Source of the DNA: Candidatus Rokubacteria bacterium 13_1_40CM_69_27
Lineage (GTDB): Bacteria > Methylomirabilota > Methylomirabilia > Rokubacteriales > CSP1-6
Reading direction: 5' to 3'
Length of the DNA stretch: 64,000 nt
Assembly (NCBI GenBank): GCA_001917535.1
Contig: MNEF01000106.1
Span: 1,511-65,510, forward strand
This document shows positions 56,598-64,000 of this stretch, piece after piece. Both the position numbers and the translations under genes were made by a program. The notes under the pieces were generated by a model, which was given only the letters and a program-made list of their open reading frames with translations, searched no databases and was not told where the DNA came from. How positions within the stretch are numbered: position 1 is the first letter of the stretch; the number at the start of each line of letters is the position of its first letter.

Positions 56598-57334
<737 letters not shown>

Positions 57335-57335
57335 G

Positions 57336-58967
57336 CTAGAGCCTCAGCCGCGGCCCGCCACCTGCCGGTCCTCCCTGGGGCCTGTTCTGGCCGCCCGCGC
57401 CCAGGGTGCCCACGATGACCTCCTGGCCTTCCTTCAGCTCGCCGCCCAGCACCTCGGTGAAGGTGCCGTCGCTGAGCCCCAGCATGACCGGCACGGCTTT
57501 GGGCCGCCCGTCGGGACCGGGACCGAAGACGCGCCCGGGAGTCCCGCCGCCGCGCCCCTCGGCCGGGAACTGGTCATAGCGCGCGCGCTGCTCGGCGGTC
57601 AGCATCTCGCGGATGCGGGCCCGCATCGTCTCGAGGATCTGCTGGGCGCGGGACTCGCTCAGCCCCGCGCTCTGCAGCGCCTGGAGCTGGCTGCGCCTGT
57701 CCGTAAGGATCGGATCGAGCTTCGCTTGCTGCTCGGCGGTGAGCCCCAGGCCGCGCACGAGACCCTCGCGCAGGTTCTCGCCCAGCCCAGGCCGGCTCGG
57801 CGACGCGCCCCCGCTGGCCCGGGGGGCGGCCTCGCCCGCCTCGGCGCCGGCAGGACGGAACCTGAGCGAAGCGTTCGGGATCTTGAGGACGTTCGGCTTC
57901 TCGGCGATGACCAGCTTCACGTTGGCGGTCATGCCGGGCAGGAGCTTGCCATCCGGGTTGGCGACCGCGACGATCACGATGTAGGTGACGACGTTCTGGT
58001 TGACCACCGGCGCTTTGCGGATCTGGGTCACACGACCGCTGAACGTCTCGCCGGCGAAGGCGTCCACGGTGAAGGTTGCGATGCCGTCCAGCCGGACCTT
58101 GCCGATGTCAGCCTCGTCCACGCTGGTCTCGACCTGCATCTGTGTGAGGTCCTGGGCGATCGTGAAGAGCGTGGGGGCCTGGAGGCTCGCGGCCACGGTC
58201 TGCCCGACATCGACGGTGCGAGAGACGACGACGCCGTCCACCGGGGCCACGATGACGGTGTGCTCCAGATTGATTTCGGCTTGGCGCAGGTTGGCCTCGT
58301 TCTGGGCCACGATGGCCTTGGCGTTCTTGAGCTGGGCCTCGGCGACTTTAAGCTGGGCCTCGGCCGAGGTCACCGCCGCGGCCTGGGCACGCTCCTGGGC
58401 CACCGTGGCTTCGTGCTGCGCCACGGCCGAGTCGAACTGCACTTGCGCGGCGTCGAGGTCAGACTGGGCGATCAGGTCTCTCTGGCGGAGCTCCTGCTGG
58501 CGACTGACATTCCGCCGCCCGTCCGCCACCGCCACCTGAGCCTTGACCGTCTGAGCCTTCGCAGAGGCCAGGGCGGCCTTGGCATTGGCGAGGTCGGCCC
58601 GGGTCTTCTCGACCACCGCCTCCTGGTTAGCCATTGCCGCTCGGGCCGCCTCCAGCTGCGCTTTGGCTTGATTGACCTGGGCCTGGAGCATCTCGGGGTC
58701 GATCCGAGCGATGACCTGTCCTTTCTTCACCGGCGAGTTGAAGTCGACGTAGAGGTTCTTGATGTTTCCCGAAACCTGGCTGCCGACGAGCACGGTGATG
58801 ACGGCGTTGAGGTTGCCGGTGGCGGAGACAGCGGCGGTGAGGGGACCCCGCTCGACCCGGGCCAGGCGGTACTGCTGGCCCTGGCCCCGGCTCTGGACGT
58901 ACAAGTACCCCCAGACGCCGGTGGCGACGACGAGCACGACGAGCCCGAGCCAGACGAGACGCTTCAT
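57336..58967 (-). CDS. MacA-type periplasmic adaptor (MFP)
   Basis: VGSQVSG, long coiled coil, [19 protein letters not shown]. Confidence 0.93.
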
Positions 58968-59015
58968 CAAATATTAGACGGCGTTAGCCGGGCTGTGTTT
59001 ACCCCTTCGTCCAGC

Positions 59016-60335
59016 TTACCGCCGACCGCGGGCCCGATCGAGGCGGTAGATGGCGATCCGGTAATCGGAGAGCGCCTGCGCTTCGGTTTGCTGGGCCTGA
59101 GTCAGCGCGAGCTGGGCGTCGGTGAGCTCCAGGATCGTCCCCACGCCGGCGTCGAACCGGCCCTGGGCGAGGCGGAAGTTCTCCTGGGCCGAGGCCACGG
59201 CGGCCTGGGCGGCCTGGATCCGTTCGGCGGCTTCTCCCACCGTGAGCTGCGACTGCTCGACGTTCTGGATGATGTCGAGCTCGCTGGCGCGCACGCGCGC
59301 CCGGGCGGCGTCCATGTTCGCTTTCGCCTCGCGGTACCTCGCGATGCGGCCGCCGCCGTCGTAGAGGGTCCACGACATGGACAGCGTGGCCGTCCACGTC
59401 TCGCCGAGGTCGGTACGGGCGCCGCCATAGGTCCCGCTCCCGGTGATGTCAGGGAAGAAGTTGCGGAAGGCCTGGCGCTCGCTCGCCTCGGCCGATTCGG
59501 CGAGCAGCCGGGCCTGGCGCATCTCCGGACGCTCGCGCAAGGCCTCGGCGCGCAGGGCGGCCCGGTCGAGCGTGACCGGCTCGTAGACGAGGTTGTCCTG
59601 AACCTGCGTCGGCGTATCCACTTCGATGCCCATGCCCGTGTTCAACGCCACGCGCGCCAGGCGCTCGGCGTTCCGTGCCTGGATCACGGTCAACTTGGCG
59701 TTGGCCACATCCACTTCGGCGCGCGCCACATCGGACTTGGGACGGGTCCCGACCTCGAAAAAGCCGCGCGCGGACTTGAGGTTGAGCTCCGCGCGGTCCA
59801 GCGCCTGCTGGTTGACGCGGATCAGGCGCTCGGCAAGCAGCATGTTCGTGTACGCCTCTTTGACGGCGAGAGCGATGAGCTGACGCTGGAGCTCGATGTC
59901 CTCCAGCGCGACGGCGGCGAGCTTCTTGGCGGCGGCGGTCGCCGCCATGTTCTTGCCAAAGTCGAAGAGAAGCTGCGAGAGCGCGACCTGCGCGACGAGC
60001 GTGTCGCTGAACTCGCGGCTGGTGATCGTCGACGACGGCGGCGCCCCCACTGACTGGCTCTTTGCAGCGGTTACGGAGCCCGCGAGCTGGGGCAGGAGCG
60101 GTGCGATCGCCTGATCGACGCGGTAGCGCGCCGCGGCGTAATCGAACAGGCGCGCCTGGATCTGTGGCTGGGACGCCAGCGCGATGGCCACCGCCTCGTC
60201 CAGCGTCAACAGCCGACCCGCAACCTGAGGCGGGGCGGGGGGACCGGCCGGACTCTGCGCCCTCGCCGGAGCCGTCGGGGTGCACAGCACAAGCGCGGCA
60301 CCGACCGCGGCCGCGACGATGAAGGCCATCCTCAT
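59016..60335 (-). CDS. TolC-family outer-membrane efflux protein
   Basis: LTLDEAVAIAL, LFDFG, RFDAGVGTILELTDAQ. Confidence 0.92.
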   Translation of the reverse strand: MRMAFIVAAAVGAALVLCTPTAPARAQSPAGPPAPPQVAGRLLTLDEAVAIALASQPQIQARLFDYAAARYRVDQAIAPLLPQLAGSVTAAKSQSVGAPPSSTITSREFSDTLVAQVALSQLLFDFGKNMAATAAAKKLAAVALEDIELQRQLIALAVKEAYTNMLLAERLIRVNQQALDRAELNLKSARGFFEVGTRPKSDVARAEVDVANAKLTVIQARNAERLARVALNTGMGIEVDTPTQVQDNLVYEPVTLDRAALRAEALRERPEMRQARLLAESAEASERQAFRNFFPDITGSGTYGGARTDLGETWTATLSMSWTLYDGGGRIARYREAKANMDAARARVRASELDIIQNVEQSQLTVGEAAERIQAAQAAVASAQENFRLAQGRFDAGVGTILELTDAQLALTQAQQTEAQALSDYRIAIYRLDRARGRR

Positions 60336-60483: not shown

Positions 60484-60530
60484 CCGCTAGATCCTGCGTG
60501 CTAGAGTCCGTCCACCACAAGATATAGTTA
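60484..60530 (+). promoter_or_regulatory. Tandem NrdR boxes over the nrdJ promoter
   Basis: ccaCAAGATATAGtta (60515-30) matches acaCwAtATaTwGtg; a weaker box ccgCTAGATCCTGcgt lies 31 bp upstream; TTGACG and TGCTAGAGT promoter elements are interleaved. Confidence 0.7.
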
Positions 60531-60612
60531 TAGGAGGGGTCCGCTCCGGGTCTGCCGGCGGGGCCAGCGGCGCGACCCTCCACCGGTGTCCGAGCGAAGG
60601 GAGGAACGGAGC

Positions 60613-63600
60613 ATGTTGTCGGAAAGCCGCCCGGCGAAGGTCGGCAAGTGGACGGAACCCGCTCTCCGCGTGCTCCGCGAGCGCTACCTCACACGCAGGG
60701 ATGGGGAGGTGGTGGAGACCCCGGAAGAGATGTGCTGGCGGGTGGCCCAGTCCATCGCCGCCGGCGAGGCCCGCTATGGGCGGAGCCCCGCCGCCGTGCG
60801 GGAGATCGCCGAGACCTTCTACGACATTATGGTGGACGGCTACTTCCTACCGAACTCCCCCACGCTGATGAACGCCGGGAAGGGCAACGGCCTGCAGTAC
60901 TCCGCGTGCTACGTCCTTCCGGTCGGCGATTCCATGGAGGAGATCTTCGACTCCGTAAAGGCGGCAGCGATCATCCACAAATGCCTGGTCGCCGACACGT
61001 GGGTGATGAGCAACGGGCTGAACCGTCTTGTTAACGTCCGGGACGGCTGCCTAGTCCTCACTGACGCGGGCCCTTTCCACGTTAGTGCGCTGCACGACAA
61101 CGGCGAACAGCCGGTCTTCGAGGTTCGGACGAACCGGGGTTACCAGATCGTCGGGACCGCCGAGCACCGCTTGCTGATAGTTGACGACGACGGTCGCTAC
61201 GGATGGCGCAAGATCGCTGATCTTCGGGAAGGCGATTGGCTCGTCATGAAGCCGGGGTCCTGGATCGGGGGTGAGACGAAGCTCCCGGAATTCGAATTCA
61301 CTAAGAAGCAGGGCGGGAACAACACCAGCTTCAGAGCCATGGAGTACCGTTTGCCACGTGAGCTGACACCGGCCCTCGCCGAGGTCATCGGGCTCTACAT
61401 CGGTGACGGCTCGAATCATCGCGACGGAGTCCGCGTCACGGTCAGTCGGGAGTGTCCCGAGGTCGTCCGGAAGATCGAGGAGACCAGCCTTGCGCTGTTC
61501 GGCAAGCGAGCCTCGATCAGCTACGAGCCGCGGAAGCGCACGTTTGAAGTGGCGATATTGAGTACGCAGATCAAGGCGTGGTTCGACTTCCTCGGCCTGA
61601 CGAAGGCCTCGGCCCGCGAGGCCCACGTTCCGGAGATCATCCTTCGGAGCACCGAAGAAGTGGCCTGTGCCTTCGTGCGTGGGCTCTTCACGGCCGATGG
61701 GTGTGTCCGCAAGAATGGCCACATCACCCTGACGACGATCTCACCGCGACTGGCCGAAGACCTTCAGAGCCTGTTGCTGGCCCTGGGAGTGCCGACGCAT
61801 CTGCGCAAAGATGTCTGGGCGTCGGGCTATGAGGTGTACCAGGTCTCCGTCTGCACCAAGGCGGGATTTCGGACGTTCCGGCAGAAGATCGGATTCATCG
61901 GTGGAGGCAAGGCGGCACGCCTGGCGGCGGTCGATGAGCACGCTATCTTCGTTAAGGGCGAAACGATCCCGAATCAGCGGCGGAGGCTCCGCACTTGGTA
62001 TGACGGACTTCCGACGGACGTACGGCGGCAGGCGAAGAGGCTGTTCGACGACCTGCTCAATCGAGTGGCAGCTCCGAGAGAGTTGAGCCGGCAGCGGCTC
62101 GCGACCGCCCTGAAGGGCCCGGGGCCGTTCCCGTCGTTCTTCGCGGAACTGGCGGAGAAGGATTTCCTTTTCGTCCGCGTTACTGCAATCCGTTCGGCCG
62201 GCATTCGTCGTGTCTACGATCTGACTGTTCCCGAGAAGCACGCTTATATCGCAAACGGGTTTGTTGCGCATAACAGCGGGGGGGGCACGGGCTTCGCGTT
62301 CTCCCGCCTGCGCCCCAAGGACGACATCGTCACCTCTACCGGCGGTCGGGCCTCCGGGCCCGTCTCGTTCCTTCGGGTGTTCAATGGCGCCACGGAAGCC
62401 GTGAAGCAGGGAGGGACGCGCCGGGGGGCCAACATGGGGATCCTCCGGATCGACCATCCAGACATCCTCGAGTTTATCGAATGCAAGCTGGACGGGGGCA
62501 TCACCAACTTCAACATCTCCGTCGCTGCCACCAACGCCTTCATGGAGGCCCTGGAAAAGGGCGAGGACTACGACCTCATCAACCCGCGCAACGGCAAGCC
62601 GGTCGGGCGTCTCTCGGCCCAGGAGGTGTTCCGGCGCGTCGTCGCCGCCGCCTGGCGCACGGGCGATCCGGGCATGGTCTTTATCGACCGGATCAACGCG
62701 AGCCCGGCCAACCCCACGCCCGAGATCGGGATGATCGAAGCGACCAATCCGTGCGTCACGGGCGACACGCGGGTGGCCACGCCCGAAGGGTGGCGTCGAG
62801 TCGACGCCGTTCGCGCGGGTGACATCATCCTCACCGTGGACGGTCCTCGGCCCGTCGAGCGCGTGGAGATCAATCCAAATACTCCGATCTTCCGGGTCGA
62901 CTTCTCGGACGGCGGCGGCCTGCGGGTCACCGCCAGCCATCAGTTCTATGCCTATCGGCAGGGCGCCGGATTCCTCCCGACCCGCCTGGACCGGTGTCAT
63001 GTCGGCGACGAGGTCCAGACGCTCCACGCCGGGGTGTTCGGGGCGGCCAAGATCCTGCGCATCGAAGCGGTCGGCGTCGCCACGACGTACGATCTCTACG
63101 AGCCGGAAACGGACACGTGGATCACCGAGGGGTACATCTCCCGGGGGTGCGGGGAGCAACCGCTCCTGCCGAACGAGGCCTGCAACCTGGGCTCGCTCAA
63201 CGTGTCGAAGTTCGCGCGGCGGGGAGCCGACGGGGAGTGGTCCGTCGACTGGGAGGAGATGGAGCGCGTCATCCGGCTGGCCGTCCGGTTCCTCGACGAC
63301 GTCATCGAGATGAACCCGTACCCGCTGCCCGCGATCGATGCCACTGTGAAGGCCAACCGCCGCATCGGCCTGGGTATCATGGGCTGGGCCGACCTGCTCT
63401 TCATCCTCGGCATCCCGTACGACAGCCAGGAGGCGATCGACCTCGCCGAGCGCCTGATGTCGTTCGTGAAGGACAAGGCCCACGACCAGTCCGCCAAGCT
63501 GGCCGAGGAGCGCGGGCCCTTCCCGAACTGGGGAGACTCTATCTACCGGAACGTGGGGCCTATGCGGAACTCGACGGTCACCACGATCGCCCCCACCGGG

Positions 63601-64000
63601 ACGATCTCGATGATCGCCGGCTGCTCGTCGGGCATCGAGCCGATCTTCGCGCTGGCCTTCGAGCATCGCGTCAAGCAGCCGGACGGGGAGCGCGTGCTGA
63701 CGTTCGTCAACGAGACCTTCGAGTGGCTGGCCAAGGAGCAGGGGATCTACTCCGATGCGCTCATGCAGGAGATCGCGCAGCGGGGCTCGCTGCACGGCAT
63801 CCCGGGGTTGCCGGAAGACGCCGCGCGCGTGTTCAAGACCTCGCACGAGATCGGCTACGAGTGGCACGTGCGCCACCAGGCGGCCTTCCAGCGCTACACC
63901 GACAACGGCGTCAGCAAGACCATCAACCTGCCCAACAGTGCCGCCGAGGAGGACGTCGCCAGTGCCTATCGTCTGGCCTGGCAGCTCGGCTGCCTGGGCA
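60613..64000 (+). CDS. nrdJ: Adenosylcobalamin-dependent (class II) ribonucleotide reductase with two inteins (3' end beyond the window)
   Basis: Not in the ORF track. From ATG 60613: LRERYL, FLPNSPTLMNAG, SACYV, GGGTG, QGGTRRGANM, TNP|CGEQPL, CNLGS, RRIGLGIMG, TIAPTGTIS, VSKTIN; no stop seen in frame. Confidence 0.95.
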   Translation, partial: MLSESRPAKVGKWTEPALRVLRERYLTRRDGEVVETPEEMCWRVAQSIAAGEARYGRSPAAVREIAETFYDIMVDGYFLPNSPTLMNAGKGNGLQYSACYVLPVGDSMEEIFDSVKAAAIIHKCLVADTWVMSNGLNRLVNVRDGCLVLTDAGPFHVSALHDNGEQPVFEVRTNRGYQIVGTAEHRLLIVDDDGRYGWRKIADLREGDWLVMKPGSWIGGETKLPEFEFTKKQGGNNTSFRAMEYRLPRELTPALAEVIGLYIGDGSNHRDGVRVTVSRECPEVVRKIEETSLALFGKRASISYEPRKRTFEVAILSTQIKAWFDFLGLTKASAREAHVPEIILRSTEEVACAFVRGLFTADGCVRKNGHITLTTISPRLAEDLQSLLLALGVPTHLRKDVWASGYEVYQVSVCTKAGFRTFRQKIGFIGGGKAARLAAVDEHAIFVKGETIPNQRRRLRTWYDGLPTDVRRQAKRLFDDLLNRVAAPRELSRQRLATALKGPGPFPSFFAELAEKDFLFVRVTAIRSAGIRRVYDLTVPEKHAYIANGFVAHNSGGGTGFAFSRLRPKDDIVTSTGGRASGPVSFLRVFNGATEAVKQGGTRRGANMGILRIDHPDILEFIECKLDGGITNFNISVAATNAFMEALEKGEDYDLINPRNGKPVGRLSAQEVFRRVVAAAWRTGDPGMVFIDRINASPANPTPEIGMIEATNPCVTGDTRVATPEGWRRVDAVRAGDIILTVDGPRPVERVEINPNTPIFRVDFSDGGGLRVTASHQFYAYRQGAGFLPTRLDRCHVGDEVQTLHAGVFGAAKILRIEAVGVATTYDLYEPETDTWITEGYISRGCGEQPLLPNEACNLGSLNVSKFARRGADGEWSVDWEEMERVIRLAVRFLDDVIEMNPYPLPAIDATVKANRRIGLGIMGWADLLFILGIPYDSQEAIDLAERLMSFVKDKAHDQSAKLAEERGPFPNWGDSIYRNVGPMRNSTVTTIAPTGTISMIAGCSSGIEPIFALAFEHRVKQPDGERVLTFVNETFEWLAKEQGIYSDALMQEIAQRGSLHGIPGLPEDAARVFKTSHEIGYEWHVRHQAAFQRYTDNGVSKTINLPNSAAEEDVASAYRLAWQLGCLG
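60982..62274 (+). mobile_element. Intein 1 with LAGLIDADG homing endonuclease (431 aa)
   Basis: IIHK|CLVADT...GTAEH...LAEVIGLYIGDGS...FVRGLFTADG...VYDLTVPEKHAYIANGFVAHN|SGGG. Confidence 0.95.
62752..63147 (+). mobile_element. Intein 2: mini-intein (132 aa) with atypical C-terminal Gly
   Basis: ATNP|CVTGDTRV...VTASH...TYDLYEPETDTWITEGYISRG|CGEQPL; removing it restores NPCGEQ. Confidence 0.92.

What the first reader, a model, noticed from the sequence alone, without database searches (positions are those of the whole stretch)
62752..63150. Mini-intein at the RNR catalytic cysteine ends in Ser-Arg-Gly, with no residue to cyclise
Seen: a 132-aa Hint insertion splits NP|CGEQ. It keeps Cys1, block B TxxH (TASH) and the block F Asp, but the C-terminus reads TWITEGYISRG|C (TCC CGG GGG TGC). 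The terminal Asn, the penultimate His and the block F His are all absent. Established: canonical splicing needs cyclisation of the terminal Asn; rare Gln and Asp termini are known in RNR inteins; the +1 Cys here is the thiyl-radical residue, so unspliced enzyme should be inactive. Inference: coordinated replacement of all three residues in an otherwise intact, NrdR-boxed gene looks like a lineage using different branch-resolution chemistry (or a conditional switch) rather than one sequencing error, since GGG differs from AAC at all three positions.
Basis: partly seen in the sequence, partly recalled or inferred. Interest (0 to 1): 0.9.

Follow-up and report, generated by a model that had tools for sequence, protein, structure and literature searches.

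The report
Intein family ending in glycine
The self-splicing protein insert at the catalytic cysteine of this bacterium's only ribonucleotide reductase ends in glycine, not the asparagine that normally cuts an intein free, and hundreds of relatives share that ending, which points to an undescribed way of finishing protein splicing.

Summary
A 132-aa Hint-fold mini-intein (62752-63147) splits NP|CGEQ of nrdJ and ends ...TDTWITEGYISRG|C. It is not an error. Independent soil assemblies carry the same letters. All 120 listed homologues end in Gly, as do 90 of 150 listed 50%-identity cluster representatives. 109 species genomes of many bacterial and archaeal phyla carry it, using all four Gly codons.

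The intein is under purifying selection (dN/dS about 0.2). It sits in the only RNR gene found in 4 of 4 genomes checked, so it must come out of the protein.

Every Gly-ended member has Asp at block F position 13 (204 of 204). That is the cross-strand neighbour of the terminal residue, where canonical inteins carry the His that assists Asn. The sister alleles end in Asp and have Leu there (72 of 72 lack that Asp). The Gly type forms one clade.

Best reading: this is a splicing-competent lineage that resolves the branched intermediate without cyclising its terminal residue, most likely through the relocated Asp. The chemistry is untested. I found no description in print.

The parts
60613..64000 (+). 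nrdJ, adenosylcobalamin-dependent (class II) ribonucleotide reductase. It runs past the window and off the contig end 221 nt later
   Evidence: PF02867 E 1.7e-116 and PF00317 E 1e-21. ATG at 60613 follows GGAGG at 60600-60604. The frame is open to the contig end. The closest full-length homologue, P0002, has 1323 aa.
60982..62274 (+). Intein 1: 431 aa, canonical, with a LAGLIDADG homing endonuclease (IHK|CLVADT...VAHN|SGGG). It serves as an internal control
   Evidence: PF14890 and PF14528. TIGR01443 intein_Cterm E 1.2e-9, 38.1 bits against a cut-off of 15.6. It ends in HN|S.
62752..63147 (+). Intein 2: the 132-aa mini-intein of the finding, Gly-ended ('G-type')
62752..62754 (+). Cys1, the N-terminal nucleophile
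   Evidence: Invariant in alignment A1 and 100% in 91 G-type rows.
62866..62868 (+). Glu39, the third column that separates G-type from D-type. Its position in the fold relative to the active site is not known
   Evidence: Invariant in A1. Glu in 90% of G-type rows, Tyr in 78% of D-type rows.
62929..62940 (+). Block B T60-A-S-H63 (TxxH)
   Evidence: H63 is invariant in A1. T 90% and H 98% in G-type rows.
63091..63093 (+). Asp114, block F position 4
   Evidence: Invariant.
63112..63114 (+). Asp121, block F position 13. This is the place of the canonical His and the proposed replacement for the terminal side chain
   Evidence: Asp in 204 of 204 Gly-ended junctions and 100% of 91 G-type rows. Both Asp codons are used among 112 pattern matches. 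It lies 11 residues before the last residue, which is where canonical alleles at the same site carry His (P0236; 17 H..HN rows).
63142..63147 (+). Arg131-Gly132, the intein's last two residues
   Evidence: Gly in 100% of G-type rows. At position -2: Arg 180, Gln 17, Val 5, Leu 1, Lys 1. All four Gly codons and all six Arg codons are used.
63148..63150 (+). Cys+1, the C-extein nucleophile. It is also the RNR active-site Cys of NPCGEQ (the thiyl-radical residue, by established knowledge of RNRs)
60515..60530 (.). NrdR-box-like element upstream of nrdJ (not tested)
   Evidence: Read. An nrdR gene is present elsewhere in the genome (TIGR00244, 197 bits).

Best explanation
This is a working intein of a large, previously uncharacterised clade ('G-type') inserted at the catalytic Cys of ribonucleotide reductase. 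Steps 1, 2 and 4 of splicing are probably canonical: an N-S shift at Pro|Cys1 helped by block B TxxH and block F Asp114, transfer of the N-extein to Cys+1, and a final S-N shift. Step 3 cannot be cyclisation of the last residue, because that residue is Gly. The carboxylate that the sister alleles carry on their terminal Asp has moved to block F position 13 (Asp121), on the neighbouring strand of the C-terminal hairpin, directly opposite Gly132. Gly makes room for it. Asp121 most likely cuts the Gly132-Cys+1 bond of the branched intermediate. It would do so either by attacking the Gly carbonyl to form a transient anhydride, or as a general base for water. Arg/Gln131 and perhaps Glu39 would help. 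SHOWN: the sequence features, their conservation, one origin of the clade, purifying selection, and that this is the sole RNR gene found. INFERRED: that it splices, and the role of Asp121.
For: Not an artefact: independent assemblies agree. 120 of 120 listed homologues end in Gly, as do 90 of 150 listed representatives of 50%-identity clusters. 109 of 112 pattern matches in species genomes are real G-type RNR inteins, with Gly codons GGA 35, GGC 29, GGG 27, GGT 21 (these counts cover all 112 matches, and the pattern itself demanded these residues).

Functional: dN/dS is 0.20 for the intein and 0.14 for the flanking extein (8 sequences, 28 pairs, 21 usable for the intein). Cys1, His63, Asp114, Asp121, Trp123, Gly132 and Cys+1 are invariant over 15 mini-inteins that are 34-55% identical to the window's. 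The model is a confident Hint fold. Homing-endonuclease-bearing versions of 354-370 aa also exist.

Must be removed: the insert splits NP|CGEQ. No other PF02867 gene, no PF00268 and no PF13597 were found in G000 (93.6% complete), G001 (100%), G008 (98%) or G019 (73%).

Role of Asp121: Asp at -12 in 204 of 204 Gly-ended junctions. 0 of 72 Asp-ended alleles have it; they carry L, F, Y, T or I instead. Canonical alleles at the same site mostly have His there (17 H..HN rows). DSSP on the model gives hairpin strands 123-125 and 128-131, which puts 121 opposite 132 (the register is my inference). The 2014 review states that His F:13 acts on Asn G:7 and on the tetrahedral intermediate (section 6 read). 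With the trait columns removed, the G-type is one side of a branch (SH-aLRT 94) inside a grade of Asp-ended alleles.
Against: No biochemical evidence of splicing exists for any member. Nearly all carriers are metagenome-assembled genomes. The Asp121/Gly132 pairing arose once on the tree, so it is one event plus strict conservation, not repeated co-evolution. I had no access to model coordinates, so the Asp121-to-Gly132 distance was not measured. The D-to-G direction depends on rooting with the canonical alleles, on a quick tree of 111 columns with many open forks; one canonical row (P0236) sits on a long branch inside the D grade. dS is near saturation (about 1.07). Position -2 is not strictly conserved, so Arg is not essential. 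'Sole RNR' rests on incomplete genomes for G000 and G019. As I recall the abstract of Amitai et al. 2004 (paper not held), an Ala substitution of the terminal Asp in the Asp-ended relative still allowed C-terminal cleavage. If so, this lineage may cut the C-junction by a route that needs no nearby carboxylate at all.
Confidence: 0.6

Rival explanations
1. It splices, but the C-junction is cut through a thioester rather than by Asp121. One route: Cys+1 makes an N-S acyl shift on the Gly132-Cys+1 bond, as in Hedgehog and other G|C and G|S autoprocessing domains. The other route: after branch formation the freed Cys1 thiol attacks the Gly132 carbonyl, with His63 and Asp121 as helpers. This second route would release the intein as a thiolactone that can close into a head-to-tail ring.
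For: Gly immediately before a Cys nucleophile is the usual context of N-S shift autoprocessing (Hedgehog Gly|Cys is described in PMC3207474, passages seen). Gly is invariant, which fits a steric need at an attacked carbonyl. As I recall the abstract of Amitai et al. 2004 (not held), the Asp-ended relative with a terminal Ala still showed C-terminal cleavage, and the authors discussed alternative models.
Against: In the canonical branched intermediate the Cys+1 sulfur is already acylated, so the order of steps would have to change. Nothing in the sequence data separates this reading from the Asp121 reading. The invariant Asp121 and its exclusion from Asp-ended alleles are explained more directly by a relocated carboxylate.
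Confidence: 0.22
2. It is a decayed, non-splicing intein in a dead or dying nrdJ, or a permanent insertion tolerated in the mature enzyme.
For: A Gly at the last position would be expected to block canonical step 3 (review PMC4031507). The C-terminal intein model does not match.
Against: The frame is intact, dN/dS is about 0.2, and catalytic residues are invariant across a deep clade found in many phyla. It is the sole RNR gene found in 4 of 4 genomes. The insert sits between Pro and the active-site Cys of NPCGEQ, and inserts of 125 to about 370 aa there are hard to reconcile with catalysis; that last point is inference.
Confidence: 0.04
3. It is a sequencing or assembly error at 63142-63147.
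For: The genome is a 127-contig metagenome-assembled genome, and the codons lie in a C/G run.
Against: The letters are identical in contigs of other samples. 120 of 120 homologues from many sources end in Gly, and synonymous codons vary among relatives.
Confidence: 0.01
4. Excision needs a trans-acting host factor, such as a protease or ligase, rather than self-catalysis.
For: None specific. It would only explain the missing terminal nucleophile.
Against: The element occurs in very different hosts: Methylomirabilota, Chloroflexota, candidate-phyla-radiation bacteria, DPANN archaea and Halobacteriales. It often carries a homing endonuclease, which implies horizontal spread that a host-specific factor would hinder. 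The N-terminal splicing residues are intact.
Confidence: 0.03

Closest known systems
Asp-ended RNR inteins ('D-type'). The Carboxydothermus hydrogenoformans RIR1 intein of Amitai, Dassa and Pietrokovski 2004 (J Biol Chem 279:3121) is the studied example as I recall it. The paper is not held; only its citation was seen
   Same: Same insertion site, NP|C...|CGE. Shared block F/G motif T-x-T-W-[IV]-T-x-G-x-x-S. Cys1, TxxH and Asp F:4 are the same. These are the nearest relatives on the tree. They also lack Asn, the penultimate His and the block F His.
   Different: D-type ends in Asp, with Leu/Phe/Tyr at -2 and Leu (or F, Y, T, I) at F:13: 72 of 72 lack Asp there. G-type ends in Gly, with Arg/Gln at -2 and Asp at F:13. 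D-type is found in cultured thermophilic Firmicutes (Thermosediminibacter, Thermovorax, Biomaibacter; names). Titles were shown for 80 of the 112 G-type matches, and nearly all of them are metagenome-assembled genomes. That the experimentally studied intein belongs to this D-type group is recalled, not tested.
Canonical class 1 inteins at the same RNR site ('N-type'), and class 1 inteins in general
   Same: Hint fold, Cys1, TxxH, Asp F:4, Cys+1. The insertion site is the same for 31 proteins and for a soil allele seen as a loose end.
   Different: They have His at F:13 (mostly), a penultimate His and a terminal Asn, and use Asn cyclisation (review PMC4031507). The G-type has none of the three.
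Gln-ended inteins (Chilo iridescent virus RNR, archaeal Pol II)
   Same: They are non-Asn termini known to splice (review PMC4031507, passages).
   Different: Gln can still cyclise. Gly has no side chain.
Class 3 inteins (Trp-Cys-Thr motif, block F Cys nucleophile)
   Same: They are a precedent for a mechanistic class in which a catalytic nucleophile sits in block F rather than at a terminus (reviews).
   Different: Class 3 changes the N-terminal steps (no Cys1, Cys at F:4) and keeps the terminal Asn. The G-type keeps Cys1 and Asp F:4 and changes the C-terminal step.

Membership tests
Intein (Hint-fold protein-splicing element) | Hint fold | tested here: met
   AF2 pLDDT 97.6. Foldseek TM 0.78-0.87 to many solved inteins.
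Intein (Hint-fold protein-splicing element) | In-frame insert in a conserved host motif that is restored when the insert is removed; intein-less alleles exist | tested here: met
   NP|...|CGEQ. Intein-less ...EATNP|C junctions were seen as loose ends in the same soils. Only 4 of 31 related genomes carry it.
Intein (Hint-fold protein-splicing element) | Nucleophile at position 1 and at +1 | tested here: met
   Cys1 and Cys+1 are invariant.
Intein (Hint-fold protein-splicing element) | Block B TxxH and block F Asp (F:4) | tested here: met
   T60, H63 and D114.
Intein (Hint-fold protein-splicing element) | Protein splicing actually occurs | not testable with these tools
   Inferred only, from the sole-RNR result and purifying selection.
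Class 1 intein (standard four-step mechanism) | Terminal Asn (or Gln/Asp/Glu) that can cyclise | tested here: not met
   Gly132. Gly in 120 of 120. 204 Gly-ended junctions.
Class 1 intein (standard four-step mechanism) | Penultimate His (G:6) and block F His (F:13); usual but not obligatory | tested here: not met
   Arg131 and Asp121.
Class 1 intein (standard four-step mechanism) | Match to the curated C-terminal splicing model TIGR01443 | tested here: not met
   No hit at E<=1. Intein 1 of the same gene hits at 1.2e-9.
Class 2 intein | No nucleophile at position 1 (Ala1) | tested here: not met
   Cys1 is present.
Class 3 intein | Cys at block F position 4 (Trp-Cys-Thr motif) and no position-1 nucleophile | tested here: not met
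   F:4 is Asp114 and position 1 is Cys.
Bacterial intein-like (BIL) domain | No +1 nucleophile; not located in conserved sites of essential proteins | tested here: not met
   Cys+1 is present, and the insert lies in the RNR active site.
Asp-ended RNR inteins (D-type) | Terminal Asp with a hydrophobic residue at F:13 | tested here: not met
   Gly132 and Asp121. The shared site and TxTW motif make it the sister group, not a member.

The most novel reading that the evidence does not exclude
Step 3 is a cysteine-protease-like or transpeptidase-like reaction. After the N-extein has moved to Cys+1, the freed Cys1 thiol attacks the Gly132 carbonyl, with His63 and Asp121 as partners. This releases the C-extein amine for ligation. 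The intein is left as a thiolactone that rearranges to a head-to-tail circular protein. Under this reading the inteins excise themselves as rings, and the terminal Gly is there for the same steric reason as in other acyl-transfer sites. None of my evidence excludes this reading, and none supports it specifically.
Probability: 0.1. Interest if true: 0.95.

Novelty: new variant of a known kind. Interest (0 to 1): 0.85.

Why it matters
Cyclisation of the terminal Asn (or Gln/Asp) is treated as a defining step of protein splicing. The two reviews I consulted list only classes 1-3 and Asn/Gln/Asp/Glu termini: section 6 and found passages of the 2014 review and found passages of the 2020 review. A large, conserved and evidently functional clade with Gly at that position would form a fourth mechanistic class.

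The question is directly testable, because a 132-aa mini-intein with known flanks can be expressed and mutated. A C-terminal cleavage chemistry that does not depend on Asn could also be useful for intein-based protein engineering.

There is a practical point as well. The standard C-terminal intein model misses these elements, so they are probably under-annotated in metagenomes.

Tried and rejected
Frameshift or alternative frames at the intein end: read by eye. No frame gives a canonical HN|C end, and the homologue data made the idea moot.

Shifted boundaries (intein starting after the first Cys and ending with the second): rejected because +1 would then be Gly, which is no nucleophile.

Cobalamin riboswitch or other RNA upstream of nrdJ: nothing credible. 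The only hit was a eukaryotic lncRNA model at E 0.65.

Sequence search of solved structures: only N-terminal similarity to DnaB and gp41-1 inteins, and no solved relative of the C-terminal part. A chance match of the PETDTW stretch to designed Kelch-like repeats was ignored.

The search for related loci with alignment A1 failed for lack of a conserved 7-10 column stretch. I replaced it with a degenerate DNA pattern.

Measuring the Asp121-Gly132 and Glu39 distances in the model: not possible, because no coordinates reach the script box.

First dN/dS run: it included duplicate rows (W = L117, L118 = L129) and two rows with another intein in the flank. I redid it without them (after a regex slip).

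Literature: nine searches found nothing on Gly-ended inteins or on a fourth class. For PMC4031507 I read found passages and section 6. For PMC7765530, PMC3207474, PMC4760082 and PMC1635734 I saw found passages only. Amitai et al. 2004 is not held; what I say of it is recalled from its abstract. Supplementary intein tables of PMC4760082 and similar surveys were not seen and could list these elements. Subscription-journal papers are not covered, so 'not in print' means only 'not found in these searches'.

X7 does not cover the intein end.

No earlier findings or accession names were used.
Full report
WHAT IS THERE. The window ends in an nrdJ gene (class II, B12-dependent ribonucleotide reductase; PF02867 E 1.7e-116, PF00317 E 1e-21). 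It starts at 60613 and runs off the contig 221 nt beyond the window. The gene carries two inteins. Intein 1 (60982-62274, 431 aa) is canonical: it has a LAGLIDADG endonuclease, ends in HN|S and matches NCBIfam's C-terminal intein model at 1.2e-9. Intein 2 (62752-63147, 132 aa) is the finding. It splits NP|CGEQ, begins with Cys, keeps block B T60-x-x-H63 and block F Asp114, and ends in ...T-D-T-W-I-T-E-G-Y-I-S-R-G followed by Cys.

IT IS A HINT DOMAIN. An AlphaFold2 model built on 15 diverse homologues has mean pLDDT 97.6. It matches solved inteins: gp41-1 at TM 0.83, and DnaB, RecA and GyrA inteins at 0.78-0.87. Sequence models see only its N-terminal half. Pfam Hint_2 and TIGR01445 both fall below cut-off, and TIGR01443 gives no hit at E<=1.

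NOT AN ERROR. Logan contigs from the possible source sample, and from two other samples of other studies, carry the same letters across 63139-63150 (X1, X3 and X5; X7 stops at 63132). These are contigs, not raw reads. The stronger evidence is comparative. A search of 5.8 billion proteins with the intein alone gave 162 hits, and all 120 listed end in Gly before CGEQ (119 SRG, 1 SQG). An exhaustive HMMER scan of 1.84 billion cluster representatives gave 463 hits at E<=0.001. Of the 150 listed, I classed 90 as Gly-ended at this site, 9 as Asp-ended and 4 as canonical Asn-ended. The remaining 47 could not be classed because they were truncated, at other sites, or missed by my pattern. A DNA pattern for D-T-W-x3-G-x3-R-G-C-G-E matched 112 species-representative genomes. 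Of these, 109 are real RNR inteins and 3 are chance matches. The carriers are Methylomirabilota/Rokubacteria, Chloroflexota, candidate-phyla-radiation bacteria, DPANN and halophilic archaea, Gammaproteobacteria, Gemmatimonadales, Nitrospinota and others. Titles were shown for 80 of the 112, and almost all are metagenome-assembled genomes. Among the 112 matches, Gly132 uses all four codons, Arg131 all six and Asp121 both. The pattern required those residues, so this shows synonymous spread, not unbiased conservation; the protein searches supply the unbiased conservation.

IT HAS TO COME OUT. The insert lies immediately before the active-site Cys. In the window's genome (93.6% complete) this nrdJ is the only hit to the RNR large-subunit family, and there is no class I small subunit and no class III enzyme. 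The same holds in the three related genomes that carry the same intein: G001 at 100% complete, G008 at 98% and G019 at 73%. Among 8 non-duplicate Methylomirabilota sequences, dN/dS is 0.20 for the intein (21 of 28 pairs usable, dS about 1.07) and 0.14 for 120 flanking extein codons. In 15 mini-inteins that are 34-55% identical to the window's, the invariant residues are Cys1, Gly13, Glu39, His63, Gly85, Tyr113, Asp114, Asp121, Trp123, Gly132 and Cys+1. Many members still carry a homing endonuclease (lengths 354-370 aa). Only 4 of 31 related genomes have the element, as expected for a mobile intein. A dead gene or a tolerated permanent insertion is therefore very unlikely.

THE CLUE TO MECHANISM. 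Three allelic types occupy this one site.
- Canonical...T-H-S-F-x-x-N-G-x-x-V-H-N|C. I found 31 and 4, and one appears as a loose end in the same soils.
- Asp-ended...T-L-T-W-[IV]-T-N-G-x-x-S-[LF]-D|C. I found 72 and 9. It occurs in cultured thermophilic Firmicutes (names).
- Gly-ended: ...[TS]-D-T-W-I-T-x-G-x-x-[SQN]-[RQ]-G|C.

Counting back from the junction, position -12 is His in most canonical alleles. This is block F position 13, which the 2014 review says deprotonates the terminal Asn and stabilises the tetrahedral intermediate. The same position is a hydrophobic or uncharged residue (L, F, Y, T or I) in 72 of 72 Asp-ended alleles, and Asp in 204 of 204 Gly-ended junctions. The model's last two strands are 123-125 and 128-131. 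With the two-residue turn at Glu126-Gly127, residue 121 sits opposite residue 132; this register is my inference, because I could not get coordinates. So the lineage always has one carboxylate beside the scissile bond, either on the last residue or on its cross-strand neighbour, with Gly making room for it. Two further columns differ between the Gly and Asp types: position -2 (Arg/Gln against Leu/Phe) and Glu39 (Glu 90% against Tyr 78%).

EVOLUTION. I built a tree of the splicing domains with the four trait columns removed (104 rows, 111 columns, quick IQ-TREE). It puts all 91 Gly-ended rows on one side of a branch (SH-aLRT 94), inside a poorly resolved grade of Asp-ended rows, when rooted on canonical rows. 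The Asp121/Gly132 pairing is therefore one origin followed by strict conservation through a wide radiation. It is not repeated co-evolution, and the Asp-to-Gly direction depends on the root.

MOST LIKELY MECHANISM (inferred). Steps 1 and 2 are canonical. In the branched intermediate, Asp121 cuts the Gly132-Cys+1 bond, either as a nucleophile (giving a transient anhydride) or as a general base for water. The S-N shift then completes ligation. The main rival is a thioester route at the Gly|Cys junction: an N-S shift by Cys+1, or attack by the freed Cys1, the latter possibly yielding a circular intein. Gly before a Cys nucleophile is typical of such autoprocessing (Hedgehog; passages). As I recall the abstract of Amitai et al. 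2004, the Asp-ended relative with a terminal Ala still cleaved at its C-terminus. The sequence data cannot separate these routes.

KNOWN OR NEW. The two reviews I consulted describe classes 1-3 and Asn, Gln, Asp or Glu termini only: found passages and section 6 of the 2014 review and found passages of the 2020 review. Nine full-text searches found nothing on Gly-ended inteins or on a fourth class. The key 2004 paper on Asp- and Gln-ended RNR inteins is not held, supplements are closed, and subscription journals are not covered. An earlier mention therefore cannot be excluded. On present evidence this is a new mechanistic variant of a known kind of element. It is abundant but overlooked, probably because its carriers are uncultured and the standard C-terminal model misses it.

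VERDICT. I put about 0.9 on this being a real, conserved family that must be removed from the protein and that lacks any cyclisable terminal residue. I put about 0.5-0.6 on Asp121 being the replacement catalyst. Interest is high because the claim is surprising to specialists and can be tested with one small construct.

Noticed in passing
window 60982-62274: The same nrdJ carries a second, canonical 431-aa LAGLIDADG intein (IHK|C...HN|S) at a different site. One host protein therefore depends on two inteins with different C-terminal chemistry.
   Followed up: partly
window 63148 (loose ends): Contigs of other organisms in the same soil samples join the C-extein to an intein-less ...EATNP| junction or to a canonical ...VVHN| intein end. 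All three states of this site therefore co-occur in one community.
   Followed up: partly
window 64000 and the 221 nt beyond it (L001): nrdJ is cut by the contig end at ...FEVFVQV. The closest full-length homologue has 1323 aa (P0002), so about 120 C-terminal residues are missing from this assembly.
   Followed up: partly
window 60515-60530: One AT-rich palindrome-like element, resembling an NrdR box, lies about 85 nt upstream of the nrdJ start. A second box is not evident. An nrdR gene is present on contig C122.
   Followed up: partly
window 57336-58970 (-) and 59016-60335 (-): Divergent from nrdJ are an HlyD-type membrane-fusion protein (PF16576) and an outer-membrane efflux protein (PF02321, E 7e-64). 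This looks like an ordinary efflux operon.
   Followed up: yes
window 61741-63876 (-) and 57333-60053 (+): Very long ORFs lie antisense to nrdJ and to the efflux genes (711 and 906 aa). Their low-complexity, Arg/Gly/Asp-rich translations are typical of high-GC DNA and are probably not genes.
   Followed up: no
P0233, P0335, P0357, P0360, P0363 and others: RNRs with the motif NP|CSE[YF] (the class I pattern, as I recall it) carry related canonical inteins at the homologous catalytic-Cys site. In these the His sits one residue closer to the end (T-S-H-F...VHN), so the block F His register differs among canonical alleles.
   Followed up: no
P0161 and P0182: Two Gly-ended inteins sit before CSEQ instead of CGEQ, so the clade is not restricted to one extein variant.
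   Followed up: no
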